Sequence record: NC_009704.1
Source: a plasmid
DNA length: 58,679 nt
Reading direction: 5' to 3' (one strand)
The notes under the pieces are model-generated. The model ran no database searches. It worked only from the letters and a program-made list of their open reading frames with translations, and had not been told where the DNA came from. Shown here in pieces: positions 5,556-58,337 of this stretch. A program made the translations under genes and the position numbers. Positions within the stretch are counted from its first letter, which is position 1; the number at the start of each line of letters is the position of its first letter.

Positions 5556-5567
5556 GTTTAGCTAAAC
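5556..5567. promoter_or_regulatory. KorA operator (OA) GTTTAGCTAAAC
   Basis: Exact match to the RK2 KorA operator consensus. Lies 21 bp from a KorB operator and about 70 bp upstream of trbA. Confidence 0.75.
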
Positions 5568-5587
5568 AATTTCCATAAATCAATAAC

Positions 5588-5601
5588 TTTAGCGGCTAAA
5601 A
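5588..5601. promoter_or_regulatory. KorB operator (OB) TTTAGCGGCTAAA
   Basis: Exact 13-bp RK2 OB consensus TTTAGC(G/C)GCTAAA, 33 nt upstream of trbA. Confidence 0.8.
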
Positions 5602-5633
5602 TTCATGCCGAAACCATAAGGCAACGGTAAACT

Positions 5634-6002
5634 GTGTACAATCTTATCTTATTTACTAACATTCTTCGCATCTTAGAAGAACGAGGAATGACAAAAAGTG
5701 AATTACATGAAGTTTCAGGTGTATCTATTTCATTTTTGTCTGATCTCACCAATGGTAAGGCGAATCCATCGTTAAAGGTCATGGAGGCTATTGCTGATGC
5801 CTTAGATACTCCATTACCTATCCTTTTGGAGTCAACCGATCTTGATCAAGACTCTCTGGATGCGTTAGCCGGTGGAAAAATGCCGAGGAGTCTTCCTGAA
5901 GGGTATGAACGGGTATCGGCTATTGTTACTGATCATCAGGCTTATATCATAAGAAAATGGCATGAGGCCGCACAAAAGAAAATCGATACCAGAACCAGCT
6001 AA
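5634..6002 (+). CDS. trbA: TrbA-like repressor (N-terminal XRE HTH, C-terminal KorA-like dimerisation tail)
   Basis: The HTH segment is MTKSELHEVSGVSISFLSDLTNGKANPS. The C-terminal LPEGYERVSAIVTDHQAYIIRKWHEAAQKK is nearly identical to the KorA C-terminus in this window (LPEGYERVTAILPEPKAFIVKKWAEETAKK). Sits directly upstream of trbB, as in RP4. Confidence 0.7.
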   Translation: MYNLILFTNILRILEERGMTKSELHEVSGVSISFLSDLTNGKANPSLKVMEAIADALDTPLPILLESTDLDQDSLDALAGGKMPRSLPEGYERVSAIVTDHQAYIIRKWHEAAQKKIDTRTS

Positions 6003-6019
6003 ACGATAGCAAATTCAAT

Positions 6020-7120
6020 ATGTACCAGCTAAAGCCTCCAATAGGGAGGCTTTTTTATTATCATAAAACAAACAAAATATCCGTTGTTCTTGCGCCAGCA
6101 AAATTTTCGTTATATCGTATATGGCACCTAATTATGCTATCAAACGAGAATTCCGGCATCATGCAACCTAACGTTGAAGAAACATCAATAGGCTCCAGAG
6201 CAAAAGAAAAGCTGCGTAGAGACTTAGGGCCACTCATCATTGATGCTCTCGAAGATAAGATGACCGCCGAAATTATGCTCAATCCTGATGGCAAATTATG
6301 GATTGAAACATTTGGTAAGCCCATGCGCCACATCGGGGATCTTTCTTTCGTAAGAGCTGAAGCCATTATAAAAACTATCGCTGGTTATCACGGTAAAGAG
6401 ATAACCACTCTAAAACCAACGCTTGAGGGTGAACTGCCTATTGACGGTTCACGTTTTGCAGGACAACTCCCACCAGTAGTTAGCGGCCCAACTTTTGCTA
6501 TACGCAGAAAAGCAGTATCAATCTTCACTCTTACTCAATATGTAGAAAGCAACGTAATGACAGCGCATCAAAGCGAAGTCATTAGAAATGCGATCAGAGA
6601 CCATCGAAATATTTTGGTTATTGGTGGCACCGGCTCCGGTAAAACCACACTTGTAAACGCCATTATCAATGAAATGGTCGTATTCGATCCCAGCGAACGA
6701 GTTTTCATCATTGAAGACACCGGAGAAATCCAGTGTGCCGCTGAAAATTGTGTTCAATATCACTCAACCCTAGAAGTCACGATGACGATGTTACTAAAAA
6801 CCACATTACGTATGCGGCCAGACCGCATTCTGGTAGGTGAGGTTCGCGGTGCAGAAGCATTAGATCTTCTCGATGCTTGGAATACTGGCCATGAAGGAGG
6901 AGCAGCAACCCTACATGCAAACAATGCGTTAAGTGGTTTAACCCGATTGAAATCTCTTATCTCTCGTAATTCGTCAGCACCAGCGGAAATAGAACCCCTT
7001 ATTGCAGAGGCGGTTCACATAATAATTCATATAAGTCGTACTCCAGAAGGTCGCCGCATACAGGAAGTTGTTGAAGTTTCAGGTTATGTGGACGGCAAAT
7101 ATATTACTCGCAATCTTTGA
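6020..7120 (+). CDS. trbB: VirB11/TrbB-family T4SS ATPase
   Basis: Walker A LVIGGTGSGKTTL plus GspE/VirB11 motifs. The true start is probably internal (ATG at 6134 or 6161). Confidence 0.85.
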   Translation: MYQLKPPIGRLFYYHKTNKISVVLAPAKFSLYRIWHLIMLSNENSGIMQPNVEETSIGSRAKEKLRRDLGPLIIDALEDKMTAEIMLNPDGKLWIETFGKPMRHIGDLSFVRAEAIIKTIAGYHGKEITTLKPTLEGELPIDGSRFAGQLPPVVSGPTFAIRRKAVSIFTLTQYVESNVMTAHQSEVIRNAIRDHRNILVIGGTGSGKTTLVNAIINEMVVFDPSERVFIIEDTGEIQCAAENCVQYHSTLEVTMTMLLKTTLRMRPDRILVGEVRGAEALDLLDAWNTGHEGGAATLHANNALSGLTRLKSLISRNSSAPAEIEPLIAEAVHIIIHISRTPEGRRIQEVVEVSGYVDGKYITRNL

Positions 7121-7132
7121 GGAGAAGTACAA

Positions 7133-7513
7133 ATGCAGATGACCATGCCGAGTATCAACATTAGTAACAAAACAATGCTTTTGTTAGGCATTGCTTTGCT
7201 GCTGATGTTATCTACACATCCGGCATTAGCATCGAATACGAGTGGAGGAGGGCTACCATTTGATGAATGGTTCACCAAAATTCGTCAGTCTGTAACCGGC
7301 CCGTTCGCATTTACAGCTGCAATAGTTGGATTAGTAGCAACCGGTGCCACCCTCATTTTTGGAGGGGATATGAATGGCTTTATGAAAACTTTGATTTTTA
7401 TTGTTCTTGTAATGTCCTTCTTAGTAGCCGCTCAAAATACACTGGCGGCAATCACAGGCCAAGGTGCCCAAATCGCTATGACATTTAAATTCATGGAAGC
7501 GGGGTCTATATAA
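7133..7513 (+). CDS. trbC: TrbC/VirB2 pilin precursor
   Basis: Signal peptide, then an SSGGGLPF...SVTGPFAFTAAIVGLVATGA core typical of RP4 TrbC. Confidence 0.75.
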   Translation: MQMTMPSINISNKTMLLLGIALLLMLSTHPALASNTSGGGLPFDEWFTKIRQSVTGPFAFTAAIVGLVATGATLIFGGDMNGFMKTLIFIVLVMSFLVAAQNTLAAITGQGAQIAMTFKFMEAGSI

Positions 7514-10360: not shown

Positions 10361-11079
10361 TTTTCAATCTGTTCAAAAAGAAAGAAAAAACTTTAGCGGC
10401 TAAAGTTTCTCAAACCGATAACCCCTATTTGAATGCACGTCGTACGTGGAATGGTCATGTTTCAGGGGTTATGTCAGCTATTCAGATCTGGCAGGTAGTT
10501 GGCATACTGGCTCTCCTAATTGCTTTAACAGCCGTAGGAGGAATAATTAAGATTGGTAGCCAGTCAAAATTTGTTCCTCTTGTTTTTCAGCAAGATAGTA
10601 CGGGAAATACTCTTTCAGTAACTCGCGCTGACAAGATACCTGATGCAAAAATTGAAGACTATCGGACTACAGCAGCTAAGTTTATTGAAAACATTCGGCT
10701 AGTTACCGCTGATTCAAGTTTACAAAGAAAGGCTGTTTTACAAACTTATTCTTATTTGTCCGCGAAAGATCCATCAACAATAAAAGCCAATGAATACCTT
10801 AATAGCAGTAAAGAAGCCAATCCATTTAATCGGGCAACTAAAGAATTAGTCAGTGTTGATGTTAAATCAGTAATGATTATTTCAGATGAATCATGGCAAG
10901 TAGATTGGGAGGAAACATTGAGGGGAAGAGATGGAACTCTAAAAGGTAAACCATACATGATGAGAGCCATTGTTAATTTATATCAGAATCAACCAACAGA
11001 TGATAATGCAGAAGTTGAAGTGTTACGTAATCCACACTTTATCTTTGTTCGTGATTTTAATTGGTCAAAACCACTTTAA
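10357..11079 (+). CDS. trbF: TrbF (VirB8-like)
   Basis: 240 aa with an N-terminal TM helix and periplasmic domain. Position matches RP4 trbF. Confidence 0.7.
   Translation: MIFNLFKKKEKTLAAKVSQTDNPYLNARRTWNGHVSGVMSAIQIWQVVGILALLIALTAVGGIIKIGSQSKFVPLVFQQDSTGNTLSVTRADKIPDAKIEDYRTTAAKFIENIRLVTADSSLQRKAVLQTYSYLSAKDPSTIKANEYLNSSKEANPFNRATKELVSVDVKSVMIISDESWQVDWEETLRGRDGTLKGKPYMMRAIVNLYQNQPTDDNAEVEVLRNPHFIFVRDFNWSKPL
10392..10404. promoter_or_regulatory. KorB operator (OB) inside the 5' end of trbF
   Basis: TTTAGCGGCTAAA exact. Encodes LAAK in frame. Confidence 0.7.
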
Positions 11080-13834: not shown

Positions 13835-14611
13835 ATGACTTTTTTAAACAACCGTTCTTTAGCCGCTAAAATTATGTTCTTGGTCGCGCTATCAGGTTCG
13901 CCAGTAACACAAACATCCTATGCGGGTGGTATTCCGGTAATGGATTTGACCAATTTAACGCAAAACATCATGACTGCGATGGAAAGTGTAGCGCAGACAC
14001 TCAAACAGATTGAACAGTATAAAACTCAGCTTCAGCAATACGAGAATATGCTGCAAAACACTATGGCTCCGGCTGCATGGATATGGGATCAAGCCAACAA
14101 CACAATTAACGACTTAATGCGTTCTGTAGACACATTGAATTATTACAAACAGCAGGTTGGCAGTATTGATAAATACTTGGATCAGTATCAAGACGTCACT
14201 TGGTATCGCAACTCTCCATGTTTCAAAGGTAAGAGCTGTTCACCTCAACAGATGCAAGCAATTCGCGACACTATCGCTGCCAGTTCTGAAGCACAGAAAC
14301 GCAGTAATGATGCAATGTTACGCGGCGTGGATCAGCAACAAGTATCTCTGCAAAACGATGCCCGACAGTTGGTGAACTTACAGCAACAAGCCCAAGGAGC
14401 TACAGGGCAAATGGCAGCAATGCAATACGCCAATCAATTAGCCAGTTCCCAAACTAATCAGCTTCTACAAATTCGCGGTTTACTACTGGCACAACAAACA
14501 GCGACAGCTACACGCGCCGCCGCAGTTAATGCAAAAGAATCGATTGAAACAGCTGGGGCCGAGAGTTTCCGAGCTGGCAGCTTAGATAAAAGCCCAGTGA
14601 AAAAATGGTAA
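13835..14611 (+). CDS. trbJ: TrbJ (VirB5-like)
   Basis: 258 aa with a signal peptide and a coiled-coil, Gln-rich body. Position matches. Confidence 0.6.
   Translation: MTFLNNRSLAAKIMFLVALSGSPVTQTSYAGGIPVMDLTNLTQNIMTAMESVAQTLKQIEQYKTQLQQYENMLQNTMAPAAWIWDQANNTINDLMRSVDTLNYYKQQVGSIDKYLDQYQDVTWYRNSPCFKGKSCSPQQMQAIRDTIAASSEAQKRSNDAMLRGVDQQQVSLQNDARQLVNLQQQAQGATGQMAAMQYANQLASSQTNQLLQIRGLLLAQQTATATRAAAVNAKESIETAGAESFRAGSLDKSPVKKW
13868..13881. promoter_or_regulatory. KorB operator (OB) inside the 5' end of trbJ
   Basis: TTTAGCCGCTAAAA. Encodes LAAK in frame. Confidence 0.7.
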
Positions 14612-16868: not shown

Positions 16869-16986
16869 TACAGGTATCACTCAGTTTTAAACGGTTAAAT
16901 GTAGTTAAAATTTGCTAACTCACAAAATCCCCAATTCTGGCGTGATTTTGGCGGAGCTTGCCCAATAGATAGAAAGGCATTTAAAA

Positions 16987-17466: not shown

Positions 17467-17488
17467 TAGCATTAAAAAGGCAGAAAAA

Positions 17489-20149: not shown

Positions 20150-21484
20150 ATGGCTACTGAAACGAAGGAAAGGAAAAAGATACGGGTAGTAACTTATAAC
20201 AATAAACAATTTGTCGTCGGGCTGGAATGGAGAAGTATTACTGGCGGCAGAAACTTTATGAAAGAAGTAAAGCGAATAGGCAAAGAGGAAAAACTTGATG
20301 TTGTTGCAATAAGACAGACGGAATCAGTCCAAGCCGGTTTTGCTCCACAAACAGACATTCCATTGAAAGGGAAGTATTCATTTTCAATTTCACTTGTCTC
20401 TCTGTTACCTGGTCGCTGGATTGGTGTATTTCCTGTTGCCCCTGATGATGCAAGTAATAATGAATATATTATTATTGCTACATCAGATGGGATTATATTC
20501 CCTGCAACAGATAAGATAATCATGGAAGATGAAGTTGAGCAAGAGGTTAACGACCTTAAATCTCGACTATCGCTAGGTGAAGGTAAAGTTGAGATATACG
20601 GTGACGCAAAAAAATTCTTTTGGGTAACGTCTGAGATTTCTTTAAGTGAAATTTTAGCGGCTAAAAACCTGAAGAAAGAATATAAGCTGAAACTGTTAAC
20701 ATGGGGATTAACCAAAAAGCAGATCTACTTCTTTATTGCCTTATTTATCGCTGCATTGTTTGCCCTTTATTTAGTGAATGTGTATCTCGAAGCGAAAGCC
20801 GAAGAGGAAAGGCTTGAAAGAGTCGAAGCCAGAAAGAAAGCGGAAAAGATTAACGAAGAGGCCAGATATAAAGCCAGTCTGGACAGTTTAAAACATCCGT
20901 GGGTAACACAAGCGTCTATTCAAAACTTCATCAAAACGTGTGATAGCAAACTTCCAGAGATTCCTTTGTCTTTGGCTGGACGTAAGCCTGTCACACTTGA
21001 TTGTAGCCATAACAGTATGGACGTTCTCTATGAAAGGTTAGACGGTTCTTCAGTGGGCAGTACAGAGTTTAAAGAAAAGGTAGAACAGTTATTTAATACC
21101 ACCCCGTCATTTAACATGAAACAGCCCTCTATCGTGGGATTTTCTCTGGCGTTAGATAACAAACCGGATGGTGATGATCCAGTTGCATCGATGAGTGAGC
21201 AGTTGAATAAGTTTGTTACGTTACTTCAGCGAAATAATATTGAGTTCACTTTAACTGATGCGCCATCCCCTGAAAAAAAGTTTGATGGTCAAGGGGTGGA
21301 GCTACCCTTACCTGACTGGAGAGAAATATATTTCTCTTATGATTCGATGTATCCACCGCGAGATATATTTAAACAGAACAATTTAAGCGGTATGAGAGTT
21401 ACAAACATCATATACGTCATTAACAATGATACATCTGAAATTTTATATAAGGTAAAAGGGGTTATTTATTATGGTAAAAAGTAA
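20150..21484 (+). CDS. pilO: PilO-like pilus assembly protein
   Basis: 444 aa. Position follows pilN. Confidence 0.45.
   Translation: MATETKERKKIRVVTYNNKQFVVGLEWRSITGGRNFMKEVKRIGKEEKLDVVAIRQTESVQAGFAPQTDIPLKGKYSFSISLVSLLPGRWIGVFPVAPDDASNNEYIIIATSDGIIFPATDKIIMEDEVEQEVNDLKSRLSLGEGKVEIYGDAKKFFWVTSEISLSEILAAKNLKKEYKLKLLTWGLTKKQIYFFIALFIAALFALYLVNVYLEAKAEEERLERVEARKKAEKINEEARYKASLDSLKHPWVTQASIQNFIKTCDSKLPEIPLSLAGRKPVTLDCSHNSMDVLYERLDGSSVGSTEFKEKVEQLFNTTPSFNMKQPSIVGFSLALDNKPDGDDPVASMSEQLNKFVTLLQRNNIEFTLTDAPSPEKKFDGQGVELPLPDWREIYFSYDSMYPPRDIFKQNNLSGMRVTNIIYVINNDTSEILYKVKGVIYYGKK
20652..20667. promoter_or_regulatory. KorB operator (OB) inside pilO
   Basis: TTTTAGCGGCTAAAAA. Encodes LAAK in frame. 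Confidence 0.65.
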
Positions 21485-44941: not shown

Positions 44942-45466
44942 TTACTTCCAACTTAATATTGGACGAATAACACTGTGTATTTGTTGTTTATCAATAAAAC
45001 CGAAATATCGCGAATCAAAAGAACTATTACTTTGGTCAGTCATTAAAAGAAGCTCTGATTCTTGCAATGTATGATTGAGTATATTAATGCTAGGCAGTGG
45101 GTTCCCTGACAAATCAACAGAGAGAGGCTTGCTATAGGGTATTTTAATATTATTAACAATCACACCATTACTATTAATAGAAACAACATCTCCTTTAGCG
45201 GCTAAAATTCTCTTCATCATATAACCATAGTTACCTGAGCAGAAACCAGAGTTGATATAACCTCGACTTCTAGCTTTATCAAAATCACTTGTCGGTGGAG
45301 GACAAAAAACAACATACTCTCCTTTAGAGATAGGTGACGGTGTCATTAAATATAATCCTACGGGAATACTTTCACTTGTGTTAACTCGAATACCAGAGAT
45401 ATAAATAATTGTAGATATCAAAGCTATTCCGCTAACTACAAAAGCCAACGAGTGTGACTGTTTCAT
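44942..45466 (-). CDS. traF: TraF signal-peptidase-like pilin maturation protease
   Basis: 174 aa. S26-like SESIPVGLY motif. Position before traG. Confidence 0.75.
   Translation of the reverse strand: MKQSHSLAFVVSGIALISTIIYISGIRVNTSESIPVGLYLMTPSPISKGEYVVFCPPPTSDFDKARSRGYINSGFCSGNYGYMMKRILAAKGDVVSINSNGVIVNNIKIPYSKPLSVDLSGNPLPSINILNHTLQESELLLMTDQSNSSFDSRYFGFIDKQQIHSVIRPILSWK
45194..45207. promoter_or_regulatory. KorB operator (OB) inside traF
   Basis: TTTAGCGGCTAAAA. Encodes LAAK on the coding (minus) strand. Confidence 0.65.
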
Positions 45467-47400: not shown

Positions 47401-50018
47401 CTGCTACGTCCTTTCGTTTTGATCACACCCTTTTCAGTAACAATCACTTCATCACCAATAGACAGGCGCTTTAAGCGACGAACAGTTGCAGCCTCAACCG
47501 GCATAACTATTACGTGATCGTCGCATTTCAAAAGAGCTAAGCTTTCGCTATCAATTTGACGAATCCCAGCGAAACTCGCGCCCCCTTTATAATCATTATA
47601 TCGATAATGTTTCACTATATCGAATCCTTTACCACGTTTTGCCTCTCGCTCATTGACATATTTATCAGCGGCAACCTGACCAGTACTAAGAGTTGATATA
47701 ACCTTTTGGGGAATAAAATCAGCAAGTGGTGATTTATTTACTGGAGGCTGAATCTTTTTAACCCCTTGGGCCAACTCCACTTTTCGCAATTCAGACAAAC
47801 TGCGTAAACGGTTTTGGCTTAGAGGCGGTGGGGTAGTACCTACTCGGGCAACCAGTGGGCGTATTGCTTTTAGATCAAGTTCTAAATTATTTAACTGAGA
47901 TAAGTGTCTCCATTTGTTTTGGCTGTTAGGGGGCGGTGCTTTTCCAACACGCGCCACCTGTGGCCGTATATCTCGACTTTTATCATCGATAGAACGTCTT
48001 TTATGTATTACTCCTCTTGCCCTACGTACACCCCATCGCATCCCGTCATTTGATTTGGTTCCTTGTTGCTCCACGTTACTAGAAACATAACTCGGCAATA
48101 GCACTTCACTTCTGTTGGTGTGCTGAACCATATCGAGTTCAGACAGGTTTCGCAGGTTGTGGGTTTTTTCGGGCGGCGGTGTTCTTCCAACGCTTCTAGT
48201 GTAGGGCTTGATATCTCTGGCGTTTCTTCCTCCTGATTCTCTTTTTCGAATTGAGGCTCCTCTTGTTCCCCTTGTTGCAATTGTTCTAATGCTGCTTCTA
48301 TTTGTTGTTCTGCTGTCAGTTCTACTGTCATGTGTTTGCTCCTTAGTGGCTTGTTGGGACATAACAAATTGACGACGCAGCTCTAAATCTGTGTCGTCAA
48401 ATTTGATATTCAGTTTTGCTTTAACGGCGGCTTGAACTATTTTTTCTTTAAATTCATCACTGCCATTTACAGAAATATTTTCCCCGTAGCGCTTTATGGC
48501 CATATGTAAAGCGGCTTCCAGACCATCCTGAGAAGCCCCTCGGGAAACTTTGAGAGAATCACCATCATCTCTAATCGCAGAGTCACCAACACGATAGATA
48601 ACGGTTCCAGTTTTAGTAATGTTATCTGGGGTAATATCTGAAATGGGGGTCGAATTATTTTTGTCGGCTTGTTTGCCAGTAACTGTATTACCCTTTAATT
48701 TTTGACGAGATTCACGAGATCTCAACGCAGACAATGCTTCTTTGTTACCCTCGGTTGCATTCGACTTAAGCCAGTCAGCCCAGGCTTGTCGTCTACATTT
48801 TTCATATATAACTTTGCGTTCTTTTAGATATTCGGCTTTAGCTTTCTCTACATCTATCTTTACCGTTCTGCTCGTTAATGAATACAGAGCTTTTTTATTT
48901 ACACCCTTTCCATTTAATAGCTTTATTGCGGCCCTTTTTAATCTTCCAGTCCGTTTAGCGGCTTCTATAGCTCTATTTTTTTTATTTCTCGCAGCAACCC
49001 ATTGAGCTGTTCTAATAGCAGATACGTTGCTCTGTTCAGCTTTATATTTGGCGTACAACTCCGTTGTATTCGCTTTCATTCGTATAGGCTCTTTCTTATA
49101 TCGTGGCCCATTATCGATATCTATTGAGTCAATATTTCCTAAGCGATGAAAACGATGCCTACTGCGTGGCGGTGGCTGTTGGCCTACTTTTCCAACCCTT
49201 GGCCTTTTACTATGCCCAATGTTGTTTTTTGGTGATCTTTTATTCTGTGGTTGTGGCTTTTCAAACTTACCAAGTTTTACCTCTAATTTTCCTTTAGAAA
49301 TATCTCTGGATACCGAGCTTGCTTTGACAGCGATTCCTTGCTGGTCAGTTATGATCAAGCCATTACCACTCTCACGCAGTTCTAGCCCATTATTTTGAAT
49401 TACTTGGTGTAGCTCCCCCCAACTTTTACTATTGCGTATAGATTCCAAACATTCACGCTTAACCCAACTGAGCAAGCTTTCAACCCCTGCGTGATGCTCC
49501 ATATCATGGGCGCGGTTTTCTGCTCCAACTTTCTTTGCAGTATGATTAGTTTGCTGCAAGCCATGTTCTATTTCTAACTTTCCAGCGATATCACCAAATG
49601 TTGAATAGGCTCTATAAGGCTCATGTAATGTATGTTTTGATGGGTGGATTTTATTAATAGATATGTGGATATGAAGATTATCAGTATCGTGATGAACAGC
49701 GCTGACACGCTGATGCTCACCATAGCCAATTGAACTACAAACCCTGGCTTCAATATCTTTAAGAATATCTGCTGAAGGGCTTTCACCTGCCGGAAATGAA
49801 ATAAACAAATGATAAGTTTTATCTCCGGTCGCGCGTGTGTTTAATTTCTGCGTTGCCTGAATCTCATTTATAGCCCAATCAACATCCTCGCTATTACAGT
49901 TAGTGATATTGATATCACCAACTCTTTCCTGCTTTCCTTGCTCATTCGTTATGTATTTTGTTAGACCTGAATAGCTGCTTCGCTTGACAGATTTCATCGG
50001 AATATGGCGAATGATCAC
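47397..50018 (-). CDS. traI: TraI MobP-family relaxase
   Basis: N-terminus MIIRHIPMKS...LTKYITNEQGK...DKTYHLFISF...HQRVSAVHHDTDNLHIHISINKIHP is nearly colinear with RP4 TraI. GTG start. Confidence 0.9.
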   Translation of the reverse strand: MIIRHIPMKSVKRSSYSGLTKYITNEQGKQERVGDINITNCNSEDVDWAINEIQATQKLNTRATGDKTYHLFISFPAGESPSADILKDIEARVCSSIGYGEHQRVSAVHHDTDNLHIHISINKIHPSKHTLHEPYRAYSTFGDIAGKLEIEHGLQQTNHTAKKVGAENRAHDMEHHAGVESLLSWVKRECLESIRNSKSWGELHQVIQNNGLELRESGNGLIITDQQGIAVKASSVSRDISKGKLEVKLGKFEKPQPQNKRSPKNNIGHSKRPRVGKVGQQPPPRSRHRFHRLGNIDSIDIDNGPRYKKEPIRMKANTTELYAKYKAEQSNVSAIRTAQWVAARNKKNRAIEAAKRTGRLKRAAIKLLNGKGVNKKALYSLTSRTVKIDVEKAKAEYLKERKVIYEKCRRQAWADWLKSNATEGNKEALSALRSRESRQKLKGNTVTGKQADKNNSTPISDITPDNITKTGTVIYRVGDSAIRDDGDSLKVSRGASQDGLEAALHMAIKRYGENISVNGSDEFKEKIVQAAVKAKLNIKFDDTDLELRRQFVMSQQATKEQTHDSRTDSRTTNRSSIRTIATRGTRGASIRKRESGGRNARDIKPYTRSVGRTPPPEKTHNLRNLSELDMVQHTNRSEVLLPSYVSSNVEQQGTKSNDGMRWGVRRARGVIHKRRSIDDKSRDIRPQVARVGKAPPPNSQNKWRHLSQLNNLELDLKAIRPLVARVGTTPPPLSQNRLRSLSELRKVELAQGVKKIQPPVNKSPLADFIPQKVISTLSTGQVAADKYVNEREAKRGKGFDIVKHYRYNDYKGGASFAGIRQIDSESLALLKCDDHVIVMPVEAATVRRLKRLSIGDEVIVTEKGVIKTKGRSR
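48008..48367 (-). CDS. Nested out-of-frame ORF inside traI (possible TraH-like acidic protein)
   Basis: 119-aa acidic ORF embedded in traI, as traH is in RP4. Not otherwise verified. Confidence 0.3.
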   Translation of the reverse strand: MLCPNKPLRSKHMTVELTAEQQIEAALEQLQQGEQEEPQFEKENQEEETPEISSPTLEALEEHRRPKKPTTCETCLNSIWFSTPTEVKCYCRVMFLVTWSNKEPNQMTGCDGVYVGQEE

Positions 50019-50034: not shown

Positions 50035-50050
50035 TTTTAGCCGCTAAAAA
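50035..50050. promoter_or_regulatory. KorB operator (OB) 17 nt upstream of the traI start
   Basis: TTTTAGCCGCTAAAAA, in the intergenic region. Confidence 0.75.
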
Positions 50051-50412: not shown

Positions 50413-50526
50413 TTACCCCCTAACTCCCATTGAATTAAGCACTAAGGCGGCGGTAGCCAGCCAGCCTCGCAGAGCAAGATTCCCATTGAGTGCCGGAGGC
50501 GCGAATAAGGGAGAGTGAAGATAGAT

Positions 50527-50567
50527 AACCGGCTTGCCGGTTAGCTAACTTCACCTATCTTGCCCTG
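50527..50567 (+). other. oriT: inverted repeat AACCGG-cttg-CCGGTT plus nick region CTTCACCTATCTTG|CCCTG
   Basis: The nick region differs from RP4 oriT (CTTCACCTATCCTG|CCCGG) at 3 positions. Lies between divergent traJ and traK. Confidence 0.7.
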
Positions 50568-50745
50568 TTTTAACCCCGTTTAACGCCAAGAGAGTATTAC
50601 ACGAAACCAAGAAAATACTAAGATTTTTCATTATATCCGTTGCAAGACCACCTAAAACCAAGCAAAATCGGGTCTACGGTTATTTATTCTTGAATGTGTC
50701 TTGAATTCATCTTGATTTGGAAATTGGAATATTCGGTAAGGACAT

Positions 50746-52463: not shown

Positions 52464-53075
52464 TTACAAAGAAGAGGATGATTCCATGTTTTGATTAAGC
52501 GTTCGACCTTTACTTCTTGCCAAGTCCTGCTTTCTGTCTTGTTCTTTTTTTCTCAGCATTGCTTCATGACGGCGTTGTGCTTCTCTCATTTCATCCCAAT
52601 CCTGCGTCAACTCAGGATTTTCTATCCTCATCTTTCTTGTGGCCATTTCTTCAATTCTAGGTGAATGTAATCCCATGCTTTCTTTTATTTCACGAACGGT
52701 TTCAAGCCGTCCGTGTAAACGCTGTAAAGAACTCTGCTCTTGATGCAATAAAGATTGAAACTTAGCTTTTTTCCCTGGTAAAGCAAACAATCCTGGTTGG
52801 CGATTTGTGGCTTGTTGAATACGTGTTGATTGTTGTTCTATCAACACCTCTAATCGGTCTTCAATACGTTCAACTTGACCATGCTTCTGATCTATATAAG
52901 AGGCCAACATAGCCCCGTACTGTACTTCCAGTGACGATGATTCAAGTAATGCTTGTTGTTCACTATGAATTATTTCGGCTTCTTTTAACAAGCCATCATC
53001 AACAGTTTGCTCTTCTTTCAACCTGTGTTCTTTTTCCGCAGTAAAAATAGTATGTTTTTCATCAGTAATTCCCAT
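52464..53075 (-). CDS. Coiled-coil hypothetical protein under a KorB operator
   Basis: 203 aa, helical and Glu/Gln-rich. OB site 13 nt upstream of its start. Confidence 0.35.
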   Translation of the reverse strand: MGITDEKHTIFTAEKEHRLKEEQTVDDGLLKEAEIIHSEQQALLESSSLEVQYGAMLASYIDQKHGQVERIEDRLEVLIEQQSTRIQQATNRQPGLFALPGKKAKFQSLLHQEQSSLQRLHGRLETVREIKESMGLHSPRIEEMATRKMRIENPELTQDWDEMREAQRRHEAMLRKKEQDRKQDLARSKGRTLNQNMESSSSL

Positions 53076-53087
53076 AGGGATAGCTCC

Positions 53088-53104
53088 TTTTTAGCGGCTA
53101 AAAT
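53088..53104. promoter_or_regulatory. KorB operator (OB)
   Basis: TTTTTAGCGGCTAAAA between two minus-strand genes. Confidence 0.75.
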
Positions 53105-53105
53105 T

Positions 53106-53483
53106 CTATCGGGATATACTTCTACCTATTTTCTGCGCCACGCTCACTTCGGCCCGACCTTGCTCGTTGCTATAAGTAATAGTTTTTTCACTCCCGATAA
53201 CTGGTACTTTATCGAAATTCGAGCTATTATGCTTCACAAAGTTTTTCCCGATTTGCTGATAAACATTCTCTTTATCTTTATGAACGATAGTACCCGTATA
53301 ACTCTTTGATTTATCGGCTTGATTGGCTAAATAGATGTTGTACATTCCTGGTTTCAAATCACCAGCTTTATCTACTTTGTCGTTTTGCCAATCCCCTGCT
53401 GCTTTTTCGGTTTGAACAATTCGTTGACCATTCATAACAAGAAGACGCTGTTTCATTAGGGGTGACTCCTCACACCGATACAC
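53106..53483 (-). CDS. Hypothetical protein
   Basis: 125-aa ORF. The start may be at the internal MKQRL. Confidence 0.3.
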   Translation of the reverse strand: MYRCEESPLMKQRLLVMNGQRIVQTEKAAGDWQNDKVDKAGDLKPGMYNIYLANQADKSKSYTGTIVHKDKENVYQQIGKNFVKHNSSNFDKVPVIGSEKTITYSNEQGRAEVSVAQKIGRSISR

Positions 53484-54308: not shown

Positions 54309-54728
54309 ATGAACATTGACCTGCCTAATATTGAAGAACAACGGAAAATGCTGTTTGCAGATAATGTCGAAAAAAGTTGTGCTGCACTAAGAAACAATCT
54401 TAACGCACCTCATTTCTCTGCTACGTCTGGTGTTGAAGTACAAACTTATGGTGATAAACATTTACGAACAGAGCAACAGGGCTGGGAAGTCCCTGCACCA
54501 GAGCTTATATATGCCTGGTTCGAACAATTCAAAGAGGTATTTCCTGAATATAATTCGGATAAAAAGCTAGCCGCTTTATTAGGCTTACACACAAGTGGAG
54601 ATCGCCGCATACGTTCATTTAAAAACGGTGAACAAAAAATTCCATATGGTGTTTGGCGAAAATTTTTAGTTCTAACAGGGCGGGTTAATCAAGAGATAAT
54701 TCCGGTCATGGGTTTTTTTAATGATTAA
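54309..54728 (+). CDS. Hypothetical protein
   Basis: 139-aa ORF. Confidence 0.3.
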   Translation: MNIDLPNIEEQRKMLFADNVEKSCAALRNNLNAPHFSATSGVEVQTYGDKHLRTEQQGWEVPAPELIYAWFEQFKEVFPEYNSDKKLAALLGLHTSGDRRIRSFKNGEQKIPYGVWRKFLVLTGRVNQEIIPVMGFFND

Positions 54729-55521: not shown

Positions 55522-56574
55522 TTAGCCCTCAATAATTGCTACCAGAGTGACACTACTTAATTCAGCTTCAAACTCCTCACCGTTATCTTCACACTTGAAC
55601 CAAGCAAGTCCTTTTAGAGAAGGTCTACGATCAAGCATTATTCTGGCTGCTCGTTCATCAACGATAACTTCTACAAAAGACTTTTTCAATTTTGACTTAT
55701 CTTCAGATTTTGATTTTTTTGAATTAGACTCATCTGAATCATCACCACCATTATCAGTATTATCTTCCCCATTATTATCTTCAGAACTACCATCGAATTC
55801 AGGGCTGTTATAAATATCTCTTTCATCTTCAGAGACTAAATCAGTGTCAGAAGAAATATTGCTATTAGAATCATCATTTTTATTATCAATGAATTCTCGC
55901 AGCAACTTTACCGAACCACGACTAATTTCTTGATCCTCATCCTCAAGCCAACTTGTAACAGCTTTAGCGTTCTTTTTAAATGCAGTCACCAGCTCATTTA
56001 TAACGGTCACATCTTTTATGCGGCCAGAATTAAAAGCTTTAGCTATTGCATCAGGTAAATCTAGCAGAGTTACGTGCTGAGAAACAAAAGCAGCTGATAC
56101 ACCAAGTTCTTTAGCAATCACGCCTTTCTTCTTCCCCTTAGCCAACTCGCGACCTATAAAATCGGCAATTTCACGGGCTGTTAATTCATTGCGTTGCAGG
56201 TTTTCAATAACCTGATCAATTTCGTTATAATCGTTGTCTATAAACCCTGGAATCGTTTTTTTCTGTGCTATTTTTGATGCGCGCATACGCCTAGCACCAT
56301 GATTTATCAAATAACGCCCTGGACTATCTGGATTGTCACGTACTGAAATAGGTGTTTTAACACCGCGCTGGCGGATAGTTTCAGCAAGCTCATTTAAGCT
56401 CTGGATAGAAAAGCCTGGGTTTTCTTCTGTTCGAGGTTGATTTGGATCTTCGTCGATTAGGTTCATATCAAGGTCAATAGGGCTTGTTGGTGATGGCCCT
56501 TTACCTGCTAATAGGCTAGACAGATCACCAATTGCATCCAGTCCTAGCGATGATTTTTTTTCTTTTGAGGTCAT
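55522..56574 (-). CDS. korB: KorB (ParB-family global repressor/partition protein)
   Basis: Long colinear similarity to RK2 KorB: GLDAIGDLSSLL, DLIDEDPNQPRTEENPGFS, GRYLINHGARR, FIDNDYNEIDQVIENLQRNELTAREIADFIGRELAKGKKKG, VTLVAIIEG. Confidence 0.9.
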   Translation of the reverse strand: MTSKEKKSSLGLDAIGDLSSLLAGKGPSPTSPIDLDMNLIDEDPNQPRTEENPGFSIQSLNELAETIRQRGVKTPISVRDNPDSPGRYLINHGARRMRASKIAQKKTIPGFIDNDYNEIDQVIENLQRNELTAREIADFIGRELAKGKKKGVIAKELGVSAAFVSQHVTLLDLPDAIAKAFNSGRIKDVTVINELVTAFKKNAKAVTSWLEDEDQEISRGSVKLLREFIDNKNDDSNSNISSDTDLVSEDERDIYNSPEFDGSSEDNNGEDNTDNGGDDSDESNSKKSKSEDKSKLKKSFVEVIVDERAARIMLDRRPSLKGLAWFKCEDNGEEFEAELSSVTLVAIIEG

Positions 56575-57656
56575 TCTGCAATCTCCATCTTTTCAAAAAT
56601 ATATTTAGCTAACTCACGAACTTCTTTTGCTGCTTTTCTAGCAGCCGTTTTTTTGATTTTCCAAACAGGGACACCTGTTGCTAGAGCATCAGCAATGCTA
56701 CTGCGTAGACCGATAGCTGCGGGGATCATCAATTGAGGATAGGCTTCTTTCAGTTCAGCTAAATGTTGGCCGTGACGTGGGTTACGTCCATCAACTTTAC
56801 TTGGCACCATTCCTAGAAAGTTTAATGATGGGTTAAATTGTCGCACGTTGATGATCGTAGTAACCATTTTCCCTATACCTTGAATACTGTAAGCCTCTAA
56901 CTCAATAGGGGACACAACATAATCAGAGGCATACAAAGCGGTTGCAAGGCTGACACCAAGGGAAGGAGCAGTATCGATAAGAACAACATCAAAACCGCAA
57001 TCAGACAGTGCAGCTATTTTAGCTTTGAAATTAGCAACAACATCAGCAACCGGCTTACTCTCCATATTGGCAAGAACAGGGTCTGACTTTATCAAACTTA
57101 ATAATGGCCCATCAGGTAATTGGCTAAATACTGAGTGAAAGTCTTTAGTTGATTCCTCAAACATCTGACTTGCTAAGTATCCGCTTTCATACTCTTTAAG
57201 TGTGAAACTTGCGTTACCCTGAGTATCTAAATCGATTACAGCAACTTTTAAACCACGTTCAAAAAAGTCATAAGCGATATGAACTAATGTTGAAGTTTTA
57301 CCAACCCCGCCTTTTTGTTGAGCAACAACCAATGTTTTCATTTTTTGCCATCCAGTTTTTTTGCTGTTTCCTCGGCCCATTTCTTGACTATGAATGCTTT
57401 TGGTTCCGGAAGTATCGCTGTAACCCTCTCGTATCCCTCCGGCAGATTTTTCTCCTGATGTGCTATCCAGACACGATTCACTGCTTGAGATACAGCCCCT
57501 CGGGAAAGCCCTAACATCGCTACAAACGTTGCTTGCGGCGTCCCCTCGACCAAGACACCATTTGCTATATCGATGGTTTGTTGGCCCACATCCAAGTCTT
57601 TTATGGCTGCCTGGAACTCGGCTTTCGAGAGCCGTTTTTTCATGGACATTACCCAT
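56571..57656 (-). CDS. incC: IncC (ParA-family ATPase). The long form overlaps korA; the short IncC2 form would start at MKTLVVAQQKGGVGKTS.
   Basis: Walker A KGGVGKTS. Overlaps korA in another frame, exactly as in RK2. Confidence 0.85.
   Translation of the reverse strand: MGNVHEKTALESRVPGSHKRLGCGPTNHRYSKWCLGRGDAASNVCSDVRAFPRGCISSSESCLDSTSGEKSAGGIREGYSDTSGTKSIHSQEMGRGNSKKTGWQKMKTLVVAQQKGGVGKTSTLVHIAYDFFERGLKVAVIDLDTQGNASFTLKEYESGYLASQMFEESTKDFHSVFSQLPDGPLLSLIKSDPVLANMESKPVADVVANFKAKIAALSDCGFDVVLIDTAPSLGVSLATALYASDYVVSPIELEAYSIQGIGKMVTTIINVRQFNPSLNFLGMVPSKVDGRNPRHGQHLAELKEAYPQLMIPAAIGLRSSIADALATGVPVWKIKKTAARKAAKEVRELAKYIFEKMEIAE
57338..57649 (-). CDS. korA: KorA global repressor
   Basis: M(S M)KKRLSKAEFQAAIKDLDVGQQTIDIANGVLVEGTPQATF...LGLSRGAVSQAVNRVW...LPEGYERVTA is highly similar to RK2 KorA. 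Nested in incC. Confidence 0.85.
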   Translation of the reverse strand: MSMKKRLSKAEFQAAIKDLDVGQQTIDIANGVLVEGTPQATFVAMLGLSRGAVSQAVNRVWIAHQEKNLPEGYERVTAILPEPKAFIVKKWAEETAKKLDGKK

Positions 57657-57712
57657 ATATTTCTCCGCGCCTGAAATTAAAATAGCGGTGACAGCCGCTA
57701 ACGATGCAGTAA

Positions 57713-57724
57713 GTTTAGCTAAAC
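57713..57724. promoter_or_regulatory. KorA operator (OA) GTTTAGCTAAAC in the korA promoter
   Basis: Exact consensus. About 57 nt upstream of the incC start. Confidence 0.75.
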
Positions 57725-57743
57725 TAAGTGCCTAATTCAATCA

Positions 57744-57758
57744 TTTTAGCCGCTAAAA
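57744..57758. promoter_or_regulatory. KorB operator (OB) in the korA promoter
   Basis: TTTTAGCCGCTAAAA, 20 bp from the OA site. This OA+OB arrangement mirrors RK2 korAp. Confidence 0.8.
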
Positions 57759-57837
57759 TTTTCTTGCCGCACTAATTTACTATTGTTTAGGTAAAAAAAA
57801 ACCCGCCGAAGCGGGAATTCTAAAAATTTAGCACTAA

Positions 57838-58155
57838 TCATCTAGTTTTCATTTTTTTAGGTTTAAAATTGTTCACAAAAAAAGTGAGAACGACTAATAC
57901 AGAGAAATGAATCAGGAATGTCCATCCTGCATAAGTTCCCTGAGTGTTCCAGTGCCATAGCATACGTGAAAACTGAAAAGCTACGTCAATGGCGAGTATC
58001 CATCGAGCGACAGGCCAACAAATCACAGTTAAAAGCCATATGATTTTGACAATACTATCAACAAATGAATTTTGCTTTTTGGCTAATACGTTATTGATTG
58101 GCGTCGTATTCTTATCAGTTTGTTCCGTCGCTGGAAATTTATAAATATTAGACAT
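57838..58155 (-). CDS. Small membrane protein (possibly KleE-like)
   Basis: 105 aa with 2 TM helices. An OB operator lies about 165 nt upstream. Confidence 0.3.
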   Translation of the reverse strand: MSNIYKFPATEQTDKNTTPINNVLAKKQNSFVDSIVKIIWLLTVICWPVARWILAIDVAFQFSRMLWHWNTQGTYAGWTFLIHFSVLVVLTFFVNNFKPKKMKTR

Positions 58156-58317
58156 AACTTGACCCCTTATGCTGTAGCATGTTCAATACATCCTACAAGC
58201 TTTGACGCACTCCGCGCCTAAGTTTGGGCTTGGATGTGACAGCATTCAGGCCAAACGCCCTGGTTAACTCCAGGGCGTTCCCTTCAACAACTCTCACACT
58301 CCGACTTAAATCTATCA

Positions 58318-58337
58318 TTTTTTAGCCGCTAAAATTT
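58318..58337. promoter_or_regulatory. KorB operator (OB)
   Basis: TTTTTAGCCGCTAAAATTT, intergenic. Confidence 0.75.

What the first reader, a model, noticed from the sequence alone, without database searches (positions are those of the whole stretch)
5556..58337. Complete IncP-type KorA/KorB global regulon on a plasmid with a RepFIIA replicon
Nine exact copies of the 13-bp KorB operator TTTAGC(G/C)GCTAAA are present.
The chance expectation in 58 kb is below 0.01. Two exact KorA operators GTTTAGCTAAAC are also present.
OA+OB pairs sit upstream of trbA and upstream of korA, as in RK2.
Single OB sites precede traI, the 52464 coiled-coil gene and the 57838 membrane-protein gene. Four OB sites lie inside genes (trbF, trbJ, pilO, traF).
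All four intragenic sites encode Leu-Ala-Ala-Lys in the same register. This suggests selection to keep the site while preserving a harmless peptide.
No trfA/oriV is present. The only replicon seen is RepFIIA-like, so the IncP control circuit has been grafted onto a different replicon.
Basis: partly seen in the sequence, partly recalled or inferred. Interest (0 to 1): 0.6.

Follow-up and report, generated by a model that had tools for sequence, protein, structure and literature searches.

The report
IncP-type KorA/KorB/TrbA regulon, swapped replicon
This is the already-sequenced Yersinia plasmid pYpsIP31758.2: a relative of the RK2/R751 resistance plasmids that keeps their well-understood KorA/KorB/TrbA gene-control circuit, operator for operator, but replicates with a different, enterobacterial-type replication module. 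It is a real, tidy example of a known system and not a new one.

Summary
The window is 58,679 bp, the published size of pYpsIP31758.2 (Eppinger 2007), whose IncP-1-like transfer genes and "kil/kor system" were already noted.

Six of the nine OB sites, both OA+OB pairs (same 32-nt spacing) and three TrbA operators lie at positions orthologous to RK2/R751. KorB, KorA and TrbA keep every residue known to matter for CTP binding, OB recognition and clamp locking.

trfA, oriV iterons, korC and kfrA are absent, so the regulon is not "complete". The replicon is an IncFII-superfamily RepA with IncB/I-complex-type pseudoknot control (Rfam PK-repBA), not strictly RepFIIA.

The "same LAAK register" argument is void, because the other two frames contain stop codons. 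Real evidence for DNA-level selection comes from codon usage in GC-rich relatives and from conservation in a diverged Xenorhabdus plasmid.

A replicon-swapped precedent exists (Xylella pXFAS01). The mildly new points are lineage-specific OB sites in trbF and in the acquired pilO2 gene, and a trfA-type promoter that now faces variable cargo.

Verdict: a new member of a known kind, of modest interest.

The parts
5556..5567 (.). OA (KorA operator) at the trbAp/trfAp-like switch
   Evidence: Exact match. It is orthologous to R751 16870 and RP4 18102 and conserved in Xenorhabdus.
5588..5600 (.). OB (KorB operator), 32 nt from OA and 4 nt upstream of the -35 of the trfAp-like promoter
   Evidence: The spacing is the same as in R751.
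5555..5583 (-). trfAp-like promoter (TTGATT-17-TAAACT); its -10 overlaps OA
   Evidence: Read from the sequence and aligned to R751 trfAp. It is near-identical in Xenorhabdus until about 40 nt past OA. Its activity is inferred, not shown.
3928..5057 (-). orf73 plus a zeta-toxin gene (with a C-terminal KfrB-like domain): the cargo downstream of the trfAp-like promoter
   Evidence: A terminator-like hairpin follows at 3901-3884. Xenorhabdus carries different cargo here.
5634..6002 (+). trbA (repressor and KorB clamp-locking partner)
   Evidence: NCBIfam TrbA equivalog, 212 bits. 72% identical to R751. The position of RP4 F104 is Y.
6106..6117 (+). OT-like TrbA operator at trbBp (TTCGTTATATCG)
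   Evidence: The same motif sits upstream of trbB in RP4, R751 and Xenorhabdus.
10392..10404 (.). OB inside trbF (codons 13-16, a variable N-terminal tail); specific to this lineage
   Evidence: It is absent from R751, RP4 and pXFAS01.
13858..13870 (.). OB inside trbJ (the n-region of the signal peptide)
   Evidence: It falls on orthologous LAAK codons in R751, RP4, Methylophaga, Marinobacter and Xenorhabdus.
20653..20665 (.). OB inside pilO2 (type IVb pilus gene, not an IncP-1 gene)
   Evidence: Exact in Xenorhabdus at 65% PilO2 identity, and absent in Fukatsuia, Citrobacter and Salmonella PilO2 genes.
45194..45206 (.). OB inside traF (KR-I/V-LAAK-GD motif)
   Evidence: It falls on orthologous codons in 7 of 8 compared plasmids.
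47611..47622 (+). OT-like site (1 mismatch) inside traI, 211 bp upstream of traG
   Evidence: Orthologous to RP4 48712 (217 bp upstream), R751 49017 and Xenorhabdus 18988.
50036..50048 (.). OB in the traJ-traI gap
   Evidence: Orthologous to R751 51058, RP4 50708, pXFAS01 26423 and Xenorhabdus 16757.
50627..50638 (+). Weak OT-like site (TTCATTATATCC) in the traJ/traK divergent promoter and oriT region
   Evidence: Resembles RP4 51317 and R751 51681. It has 2 mismatches, so this is a tentative assignment.
53090..53102 (.). OB in the kfrB-kfrC gap
   Evidence: Orthologous to R751 834, RP4 54439, pXFAS01 29261 and Xenorhabdus 13687.
52464..53483 (-). kfrC and kfrB
   Evidence: NCBIfam IncP_KfrC_dom at 195 bits and Pfam KfrB.
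55522..56574 (-). korB (ParB-family CTPase clamp)
   Evidence: Pfam ParB_N+KorB+KorB_C. E=4e-100 to PDB 8QA8. A115, R117, N146, T211, R240 and F249 are conserved.
56571..57656 (-). incC (ParA), long form, with korA nested in another frame
   Evidence: 52% identical to R751.
57338..57649 (-). korA
   Evidence: Pfam KORA at 102 bits. E=2e-39 to PDB 2N5G/8QA9; the position of Y84 is F.
57712..57740 (-). korAp (TTGAAT-17-TAAACT); its -10 overlaps OA
57713..57724 (.). OA at korAp
   Evidence: Orthologous to R751 4757 and RP4 59408.
57745..57757 (.). OB at korAp, 4 nt upstream of the -35
57838..58155 (-). kleE
   Evidence: Pfam KleE at 95.7 bits.
58321..58333 (.). OB 166 nt upstream of kleE, at the edge of a 250-bp AT-rich tract next to the replicon
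   Evidence: Xenorhabdus has TTTAGCAGCTAAA at the equivalent position.
519..1687 (-). Replicon: PK-repBA pseudoknot (1567-1687), a 17-aa leader ORF (1602-1549) overlapping the rep start, and rep (519-1556, 345 aa)
   Evidence: Rfam RF01089 at 95.8 bits. Leader ORF. Rep family.

Best explanation
The window is a complete conjugative plasmid, identified as pYpsIP31758.2 of Y. pseudotuberculosis IP31758 on the basis of its length. Its backbone (Tra1, Tra2/Trb, korA-incC-korB, kfrBC, kleE, trbA) is a diverged sister of IncP-1.

Proposed mechanism (inferred from RK2 work, not shown for this plasmid):
- KorB, a ParB-family CTPase, loads at the nine OB sites, closes into a clamp and slides.
- KorA bound at OA captures and locks it. 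OA overlaps the -10 of korAp and of the trbAp/trfAp-like switch.
- TrbA bound at OT-like sites does the same at trbBp, traGp and traJ/Kp.
- This represses the central control operon and the transfer genes.
- With IncC, the same OB sites serve as centromeres for partition.
- The promoter-distal and intragenic OB sites are inherited loading and centromere sites, kept by selection on the DNA.

The TrfA/oriV replicon has been replaced by an enterobacterial RepA replicon. That replicon is controlled by antisense RNA, a pseudoknot and a leader peptide, so replication is no longer under Kor control. The old trfA promoter survives as part of the trbA switch and now faces variable cargo (orf73 plus a zeta toxin here).
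For: Shown here:
- Motif counts.
- Protein families.
- 44-72% amino-acid identity and synteny with R751 for 27 genes.
- OA-OB spacing and promoter hexamers identical to R751.
- Six of nine OB sites at orthologous positions in RP4 and R751, including LAAK codons in trbJ and traF.
- OT-like motifs at three orthologous places.
- KorB A115/R117/N146/T211/R240/F249 conserved, KorA Y84 replaced by F, TrbA F104 replaced by Y.
- DNA-level selection: given the peptide xLAAK, the OB spelling has probability about 1e-6 (R751) to 1e-5 (RP4) from codon usage, yet it is always used.
- All LAAK peptides in the window are OB-coded.
- The Xenorhabdus relative (KorB 73%) keeps both OA+OB pairs and the OB sites in trbJ, pilO2, traJ-I and kfrB-C. 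It has a centre-variant OB upstream of kleE. Its traF and trbF were outside the loci fetched. It also keeps OT-like sites at trbBp and traGp.
- No trfA, iterons or korC.
- PK-repBA and the leader ORF.

Against: - No binding or expression data exist for this plasmid, so every functional step is by homology.
- The window has no OB between trbA and trbB, although IncP-1 and Xenorhabdus do. The nearest OB is 518 bp away, beyond a terminator-like hairpin.
- OT assignments rest on a motif I derived from three trbB promoters. Two of the three window sites have 1-2 mismatches.
- The T211/R240 specificity residues are recalled from Khare et al. 2004 and could not be confirmed in the paper library.
- Within the 40%-GC window alone the codon argument is weak (P about 0.012 per site).
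Confidence: 0.85

Rival explanations
1. The promoter-distal OB sites (trbF, trbJ, pilO2, traF, traJ-I, kfrB-C) act only as partition centromeres for IncC/KorB and play no part in transcription. Only the two OA+OB promoters are regulatory.
For: KorB is a ParB and IncC a ParA. The sites are spread every 3-7 kb along the backbone. No promoter, OA or OT lies within a few hundred bp of the trbF, trbJ or pilO2 sites.
Against: One centromere is normally enough for partition, yet four distal positions are conserved from RK2 to this plasmid. The traGp OT-like site sits about 2.4 kb from OB sites on both sides in the window and 2.0-2.4 kb in RP4. KorB reaches promoters 1.5 kb away and diffuses beyond 3 kb in vitro (PMC11790492). 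The two roles are not mutually exclusive.
Confidence: 0.3
2. One reading: an IncP control circuit was grafted onto a pre-existing RepFIIA plasmid, and the intragenic sites were newly selected to encode a harmless LAAK peptide.
For: Rep is non-TrfA and falls in the IncFII superfamily. The pil module is shared at 91% DNA identity with IncI-type plasmids. Two intragenic sites (trbF, pilO2) are indeed specific to this lineage.
Against: About 27 genes, including both transfer regions, oriT, kfr, kle and trbA, are syntenic with IncP-1, not just the control circuit. The trbJ and traF sites are inherited on orthologous codons. The LAAK register is forced by stop codons in the other frames. The replicon sits exactly in the trfA slot between kleE and trbA, as a different RepA does in pXFAS01.
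Confidence: 0.1
3. The OB and OA sites are non-functional relics that persist through recent common ancestry.
For: The only near-identical relative (98%) is uninformative about constraint.
Against: The sites are exact across plasmids whose proteins are 44-72% identical and whose GC content ranges from 40% to 64%. The OB spelling of LAAK uses codons that are nearly unused in R751 and RP4. The regulators keep all functional residues.
Confidence: 0.03

Closest known systems
IncP-1 plasmids RK2/RP4 (alpha) and R751 (beta): the KorA-KorB-TrbA(-KorC) global regulon
   Same: - korA nested in incC, followed by korB.
- Identical OB and OA sequences.
- OA at the -10 and OB 4 nt upstream of the -35 at korAp and trfAp/trbAp, with 32-nt spacing.
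- OB sites in trbJ, traF, traJ-traI and kfrB-kfrC at orthologous positions.
- OT-like sites at trbBp, traGp and traJ/Kp.
- Conserved CTP-binding, DNA-recognition and aromatic clamp-lock residues.
   Different: - No trfA, ssb-trfA operon or oriV iterons.
- No korC or OC; no kfrA, kleA/B/F or kla/klc.
- No OB at trbBp; only 2 OA sites (7 within one mismatch in RP4).
- Extra OB sites in trbF and pilO2.
- A 13-kb type IVb pil cluster inserted after trbN.
- 40% GC instead of 54-64%.
- Proteins only 44-72% identical.
Xylella fastidiosa pXFAS01 / pXF-RIV5 (Rogers & Stenger 2012, PMC3522642)
   Same: - An IncP-like Tra/Trb backbone with korA-incC-korB, kfrBC and kleE, and no kfrA.
- No TrfA, with a RepA gene in the trfA slot.
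- Six exact OB sites plus OA+OB pairs at 32-nt spacing at korAp and the trfAp-like promoter.
- Several transfer proteins are closer to the window than R751's are (TraG 79%, TrbC 71%).
   Different: - An unrelated RepA (rep_cluster_1323; no tblastn match to the window's Rep).
- There the trfAp-like promoter still drives ssb-hyp-repA, so replication may remain Kor-controlled.
- No pil cluster; no OB in trbJ, trbF or upstream of kleE.
Xenorhabdus bovienii 48.6-kb contig JBPFGP010000028.1 and Y. massiliensis GTA plasmid NZ_CP028489.1
   Same: They belong to the same lineage: the same 345-aa Rep (77% and 98%), the RHH-ParE module upstream of rep, the same trb-nusG-pil-traC architecture, and the same operator map including the pilO2 OB.
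   Different: Xenorhabdus differs in four ways:
- It has an OB-like site at trbBp (central T).
- It has an extra OB between the pil cluster and traC.
- It has a central-A variant OB upstream of kleE.
- It carries different cargo downstream of the trfAp-like promoter.
I-complex replicons (IncB pMU720 repBA, IncI1 ColIb-P9 repYZ, IncK/Z/L-M)
   Same: Full-length Rfam PK-repBA match with the UUGGCG loop and its distal partner, and a short leader ORF whose stop overlaps the rep start.
   Different: The Rep protein clusters with a Serratia/Yersinia/Erwinia/Edwardsiella family. One search gave 408 PLSDB records at 52% identity or less, plus one Y. massiliensis plasmid at 98%. It does not cluster with the abundant E. 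coli and Salmonella IncI1/B/K plasmids. No incompatibility data exist.

Membership tests
IncP-1-type KorA/KorB/TrbA regulon | korA-incC-korB operon with korA nested in incC | tested here: met
   ORFs 57338-57649, 56571-57656 and 55522-56574 on the minus strand. Pfam KORA, ParA-type and ParB_N+KorB+KorB_C.
IncP-1-type KorA/KorB/TrbA regulon | Multiple copies of the OB palindrome TTTAGC(G/C)GCTAAA | tested here: met
   9 exact copies against 0.01 expected.
IncP-1-type KorA/KorB/TrbA regulon | OA overlapping the -10 with OB just upstream of the -35 at korAp and trfAp/trbAp | tested here: met
   32-nt OA-OB spacing and TTGAnn-17-TAAACT promoters, aligned to R751.
IncP-1-type KorA/KorB/TrbA regulon | KorB CTP-binding motif and the aromatic KorB-KorA/TrbA interface (F249, Y84, F104) | tested here: met
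   GARRMR with R117, N146 and F249; KorA has F and TrbA has Y at the partner positions.
IncP-1-type KorA/KorB/TrbA regulon | TrbA with operators at the transfer promoters | tested here: met
   TrbA equivalog at 212 bits. OT-like motifs at trbBp (exact), traGp (1 mismatch) and traJ/Kp (2 mismatches). The motif was derived here, not taken from a curated source.
IncP-1-type KorA/KorB/TrbA regulon | KorC repressor and OC operators (the fourth global regulator of RK2) | tested here: not met
   There is no credible KorC: one weak 31-aa tblastn hit with no Pfam support. There is no OC within 2 mismatches. Note that the same OC search also found no site in R751.
IncP-1-type KorA/KorB/TrbA regulon | KorB and KorA actually bind these sites and repress | not testable with these tools
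   This needs EMSA, ChIP-seq or reporter assays.
IncP-1 incompatibility group (sensu stricto) | TrfA initiator and oriV iterons | tested here: not met
   No significant tblastn match for R751 or RP4 TrfA (the best R751 TrfA hit has E=0.32). 0 iteron-like sites, against 10 each in RP4 and R751.
IncP-1 incompatibility group (sensu stricto) | Tra1 and Tra2 transfer regions and an IncP-type oriT | tested here: met
   trbA-L and N, traC-M are syntenic at 36-72% identity. The oriT/traJ leader is 84-86% DNA-identical to IncP-1 plasmids, with Rfam traJ-II at 111.6 bits.
RepFIIA (IncFII) replicon | RepA matching the IncFII RepA profiles above threshold | tested here: inconclusive
   The Pfam scan gave no hit at E<=0.01. 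NCBIfam RepA_IncFII_LM scored 26.8 bits against a cut-off of 70. Precomputed Pfam labels give PF02387 for the Rep proteins of the Xenorhabdus contig (77% identical to the window's Rep) and of the Yersinia-type contig L045.
RepFIIA (IncFII) replicon | CopA-type antisense RNA control region | tested here: not met
   No Rfam family other than PK-repBA and traJ-II reached its gathering score.
I-complex (IncB/I1/K/Z/L-M) replicon control | Pseudoknot-activated translation of rep (stem-loop I with UUGGCG loop plus a distal complement) | tested here: met
   RF01089 PK-repBA, model positions 1-124 of 124, 95.8 bits against a gathering score of 45.
I-complex (IncB/I1/K/Z/L-M) replicon control | Leader peptide translationally coupled to rep | tested here: met
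   A 17-aa ORF at 1602-1549 whose TAG overlaps the rep GTG at 1556. The coupling itself is inferred.
I-complex (IncB/I1/K/Z/L-M) replicon control | Rep protein and incompatibility shared with IncB/I1/K plasmids | tested here: inconclusive
   The relatives are Serratia, Providencia, Yersinia, Edwardsiella and Erwinia plasmids at 52% identity or less. There was no direct comparison with RepZ or RepA of IncI1/IncB, and incompatibility cannot be tested here.

The most novel reading that the evidence does not exclude
In this rare Yersinia/Xenorhabdus lineage, KorB operators were gained de novo inside newly acquired DNA (the type IVb pilus gene pilO2) and in trbF. The pilO2 site has been held by selection since before the two plasmids diverged.

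This would mean that promoter-distal OB sites are actively recruited, at roughly 3-7 kb spacing, as clamp-loading or centromere sites that extend KorB's reach over incoming modules.

In parallel, the KorA-controlled trfA promoter has been uncoupled from replication. It now works as a Kor-regulated expression slot for interchangeable cargo (a zeta-toxin module in Yersinia). This makes the lineage a natural experiment in what the Kor circuit does when it no longer controls replication.
Probability: 0.3. Interest if true: 0.5.

Novelty: new member of a known kind. Interest (0 to 1): 0.3.

Why it matters
The KorB/KorA/TrbA clamp sliding-and-locking circuit is a current model for long-range bacterial gene silencing. 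So far it has been studied only on TrfA-type IncP-1 plasmids.

This plasmid and its Xenorhabdus relative show the operator map, including the long-puzzling promoter-distal sites, surviving three large changes:
- 30-55% protein divergence;
- a 20-point drop in GC content;
- loss of the replication arm of the regulon.

That is useful comparative evidence that the distal sites are functional. It also offers a natural system for asking what they do, for example by synonymous knock-outs of the traF, trbJ and pilO2 sites. It does not reveal a new kind of system.

Tried and rejected
1. LAAK register as a sign of selection: rejected. Frames 1 and 3 of the site contain TAA or TAG on both strands.
2. 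A hidden trfA, oriV or korC: tblastn with R751 and RP4 proteins, plus iteron and OC scans, found nothing credible. The 31-aa KorC-like hit in ORF 54309-54728 has no Pfam support.
3. Kor control of rep: only a 2-mismatch OB-like site lies upstream of the rep control region (1772). The window has three sites with 1-2 mismatches in all, against about 2 expected by chance. A terminator-like hairpin follows the zeta gene. I therefore did not claim Kor control of rep.
4. DnaA boxes in the rep-kleE spacer: none within 1 mismatch, so the origin position is left open.
5. Finding more lineage members. The PilO2 scan of genome contigs found nothing. The KorB scan found only relatives at 63% or less over the full length. 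The 5.8-billion-protein search found only two closer KorB clusters.
6. Whether the IncI-type contigs that carry the pilO2 OB also encode KorB: nothing in the 16 kb retrievable from each. The rest of those contigs could not be reached.
7. Confirming KorB T211/R240 as the OB-reading residues in the paper library: not found.
8. Literature on trfA-less IncP-like plasmids beyond pXF-RIV5: two searches returned nothing relevant.

Full report
**Observation**

A strict search finds exactly nine TTTAGC(G/C)GCTAAA sites and two GTTTAGCTAAAC sites at the coordinates given. The shuffle expectations are 0.01 and 0. The motif count is therefore real and far beyond chance.

**Identity of the window**

The window is 58,679 bp, the published length of pYpsIP31758.2 from Y. 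pseudotuberculosis IP31758. Eppinger et al. [quoted passage not shown] That paper never mentions KorB or its operators.

The closest record in PLSDB is a 57.3-kb Y. massiliensis plasmid at about 98% identity. It is typed MOBP / MPF_T / rep_cluster_901, it shares many WP_011988xxx proteins, and it keeps all nine OB sites.

**The regulators**

Profile searches identify the following:
- KorA (Pfam KORA, 102 bits);
- IncC, with korA nested inside it;
- KorB (ParB_N + KorB + KorB_C);
- TrbA (NCBIfam equivalog, 212 bits);
- KleE, KfrB and KfrC.

Twenty-seven backbone proteins match R751 in conserved order at 36-72% identity. Examples are TrbA 72%, KorA 66%, KorB 60%, TraG 68% and TraI 44%.

KorB aligns to the RK2 KorB crystal chains with E=4e-100, and KorA with E=2e-39. 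The residues shown to matter in RK2 are all present:
- A115, R117 and N146, for CTP binding and N-domain engagement;
- F249, the clamp-lock interface;
- an aromatic residue at KorA position 84 (F) and at TrbA position 104 (Y).

These are the criteria used by McLean et al. (PMC11790492, PMC13584720). T211 and R240 are also conserved. I recall these from Khare et al. 2004 as the residues that read the OB sequence, but I could not confirm that in the paper library. The KorB DNA-binding domain is 76% identical to RP4's.

**Operators compared with IncP-1**

I fetched R751 and RP4 and mapped their sites.

Both OA+OB pairs in the window have the same 32-nt start-to-start spacing as in R751. They also share the same promoter geometry: OB 4 nt upstream of a TTGAnn -35, a 17-nt spacer, and a TAAACT -10 that overlaps OA.

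The OB sites in trbJ and traF lie on exactly orthologous LAAK codons in R751 and RP4. The sites in the traJ-traI and kfrB-kfrC gaps are also shared. So six of the nine sites are inherited.

A motif conserved upstream of trbB in RP4, R751 and the window is TTCGnTATATCG. I take it to be the TrbA operator. It recurs at two further orthologous places:
- inside traI, about 211 bp upstream of traG (217 bp in RP4);
- more weakly, in the traJ/traK divergent region.

**What is missing**

- There is no TrfA. The best tblastn hit has E=0.32.
- There are no TrfA iterons: 0 in the window, against 10 each in RP4 and R751.
- There is no KorC and no OC operator.
- kfrA, kleA/B/F and kla/klc are absent.
- There is no OB between trbA and trbB.

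"Complete regulon" is therefore an overstatement.

**The replicon**

rep (519-1556, minus strand, 345 aa) has these properties:
- It gave no Pfam hit in my scan.
- It gave only a sub-threshold NCBIfam match, RepA_IncFII_LM at 26.8 bits against a cut-off of 70.
- Precomputed labels for its relatives in L044 and L045 give PF02387 IncFII_repA.

Immediately upstream, Rfam finds a full-length PK-repBA element at 95.8 bits. It includes the UUGGCG loop that is typical of IncB/I-complex replication control. A 17-codon leader ORF has a stop codon that overlaps the rep start.

Related Rep proteins occur on 408 PLSDB plasmids, mostly from Serratia, Providencia, Yersinia, Edwardsiella and Erwinia. Apart from the Y. 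massiliensis plasmid (98%), they are 52% identical or less.

So the replicon belongs to the IncFII superfamily, with I-complex-style control, in an enterobacterial family. It is not RepFIIA in the strict sense.

**The LAAK argument**

All four intragenic sites do encode LAAK. This is forced. Read in the other two frames, TTTAGCSGCTAAA gives TTT-AGC-SGC-TAA or TT-TAG-..., and the same holds on the complementary strand. LAAK is therefore the only register compatible with an open reading frame.

A valid test uses codon usage. Given the peptide x-LAAK, the probability of the OB spelling is:
- about 1e-6 in R751;
- about 1e-5 in RP4, where TTA is 0.3-1.1% of Leu codons;
- about 1e-2 in the 40%-GC window.

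Even so, the traF site is spelled as OB in 7 of the 8 plasmids compared, and the trbJ site in 6 of 8. Within the window, every LAAK in a long ORF is an OB site and none is spelled otherwise. So the operator imposes the peptide.

The sites sit where that peptide is tolerated:
- the variable N-terminal tail of TrbF;
- the n-region of the TrbJ signal peptide;
- a conserved KR(I/V)LAAKGD stretch of TraF.

**Relatives and history**

Xylella pXFAS01/pXF-RIV5 was already described as an IncP-like backbone with RepA instead of TrfA (PMC3522642). It has six exact OB sites and both OA+OB modules at the same spacing. Its RepA is unrelated to the window's Rep and sits in the same slot. Like the window, it lacks kfrA. 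A KorAB regulon on a non-TrfA replicon is therefore not new.

Searches of GTDB genomes and of 5.8 billion proteins found only two KorB clusters closer than about 63%:
- a 93% Yersinia-type cluster;
- a 73% protein on a 48.6-kb Xenorhabdus bovienii contig.

That contig has the same Rep (77% identical), the same RHH-ParE module and the same trb-nusG-pil-traC layout. Its operator map is as follows:
- both OA+OB pairs are present;
- the OB sites in trbJ, pilO2, traJ-I and kfrB-C are present;
- a centre-variant OB lies upstream of kleE;
- OT-like sites are present at trbBp and traGp.

The replicon swap and the pil insertion therefore predate the Yersinia/Xenorhabdus split.

**The pilO2 site**

pilO2 is not an IncP-1 gene. 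More distant PilO2 genes lack the site. Fukatsuia has TTAACGGTTAA at that position, and Citrobacter and Salmonella have unrelated sequence. Xenorhabdus has it exactly, at 65% PilO2 identity. This is the best evidence that a new OB was recruited into acquired DNA and then maintained.

There is a complication. PilO2 genes at 86-92% identity, also carrying the site, lie on contigs with IncI-type transfer genes. The window's pil region is 91% DNA-identical to one of those contigs over 7.6 kb. The pil module has therefore moved recently between backbones. The direction is unresolved.

**The orphaned trfA promoter**

The window and Xenorhabdus are near-identical from OB through about 40 nt past OA. 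Homology then stops.
- Downstream in Yersinia lie about 490 bp of non-coding DNA, then orf73 and a zeta-toxin gene with a KfrB-like C-terminal domain, then a terminator-like hairpin.
- Downstream in Xenorhabdus there are different genes.

So the trbAp/trfAp switch is conserved as a unit, and its former replication arm now faces variable cargo.

**Verdict**

This is a well-preserved, replicon-swapped member of the known IncP-type KorA/KorB/TrbA system, on a plasmid that was published long ago. Its modest value is comparative, bearing on why promoter-distal OB sites are kept.

Noticed in passing
window 1549-1687 (minus strand): Full-length Rfam PK-repBA pseudoknot (95.8 bits), plus a 17-aa leader ORF (1602-1549) whose TAG overlaps the rep GTG start. 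A weak plus-strand PK-repBA hit at 1632-1750 may mark the antisense RNA gene.
   Followed up: partly
window 50463-50565 (minus strand): Rfam traJ-II RNA motif at 111.6 bits in the traJ leader. This is also the only stretch with 84-86% DNA identity to many IncP-1 plasmids.
   Followed up: no
window 3928-5057 (minus strand): A zeta-toxin family protein carries a weak C-terminal KfrB domain and is preceded by a 73-aa ORF. Both lie downstream of the orphaned trfAp-like promoter, so this may be a Kor-regulated addiction module. The Xenorhabdus relative has different genes here.
   Followed up: partly
window 16900-30000; L043 (Logan ERR024568_121) and L040 (Logan ERR12257642_151): The pil cluster is 91% DNA-identical over 7.6 kb to L043 and 79-93% identical to L040. 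Both contigs have IncI-type transfer genes (IcmT, DotD/TcpQ; T4SS_TraI and MobC in L043). Both keep the exact OB in pilO2 as their only OB. No KorB, IncC or KorA was found in the 16 kb available from each.
   Followed up: partly
L007 (Ca. Fukatsuia symbiotica plasmid) about 20487: At the position of the pilO2 OB, Fukatsuia has the symmetric variant palindrome TTAACGGTTAA, which differs from OB by two complementary transitions. It occurs once in 41 kb. This could be the precursor of the OB site or just chance.
   Followed up: no
window 58254-58279: A perfect 10-bp inverted repeat (AACGCCCTGG / CCAGGGCGTT, 6-nt loop) lies between the OB at 58321 and kleE. It falls inside a block that is 80% conserved with Xenorhabdus. 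It has no T-run, so it may be an operator and not a terminator.
   Followed up: no
window 1772-1784, 30086-30098, 40434-40446: There are three near-OB sites. One has 2 mismatches and lies just upstream of the rep control region. One has 1 mismatch and lies in trbM. One has 1 mismatch and lies in traC, a gene in which pXFAS01 has an exact OB. Together they are about what chance predicts (about 2 expected).
   Followed up: partly
window 519-1556; L044 6386-7423; L045 6330-7367: My Pfam scan found no family for Rep at E<=0.01. The precomputed Pfam labels for its relatives in L044 and L045 list PF02387 IncFII_repA without a weak mark. The discrepancy between the two sources is unexplained.
   Followed up: no
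whole window: GC content is 40%, against 54-64% in the IncP-1 plasmids compared and 49% in pXFAS01. The backbone has drifted strongly towards AT while OB, OA and OT stayed exact.
   Followed up: partly
window 16987-17466: A NusG-family gene sits at the head of the pil cluster. It is conserved there in Xenorhabdus and in the IncI-type contigs, so it may be a dedicated antiterminator for the long pil operon.
   Followed up: no
window 30000-39600: The 24.5-kb stretch from 20666 to 45193 has no OB. Its accessory part holds an integrase, HEPN and CAAX-protease genes and a type VI secretion TssD/Hcp-like gene, according to the annotation of the Y. massiliensis relative. It shares 91-98% identical segments with other Yersinia plasmids.
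   Followed up: no
literature (PMC1959361): [quoted passage not shown] No TrfA or oriV is present, and replication must depend on the RepA/PK-repBA module, so that statement is inaccurate on replication.
   Followed up: yes
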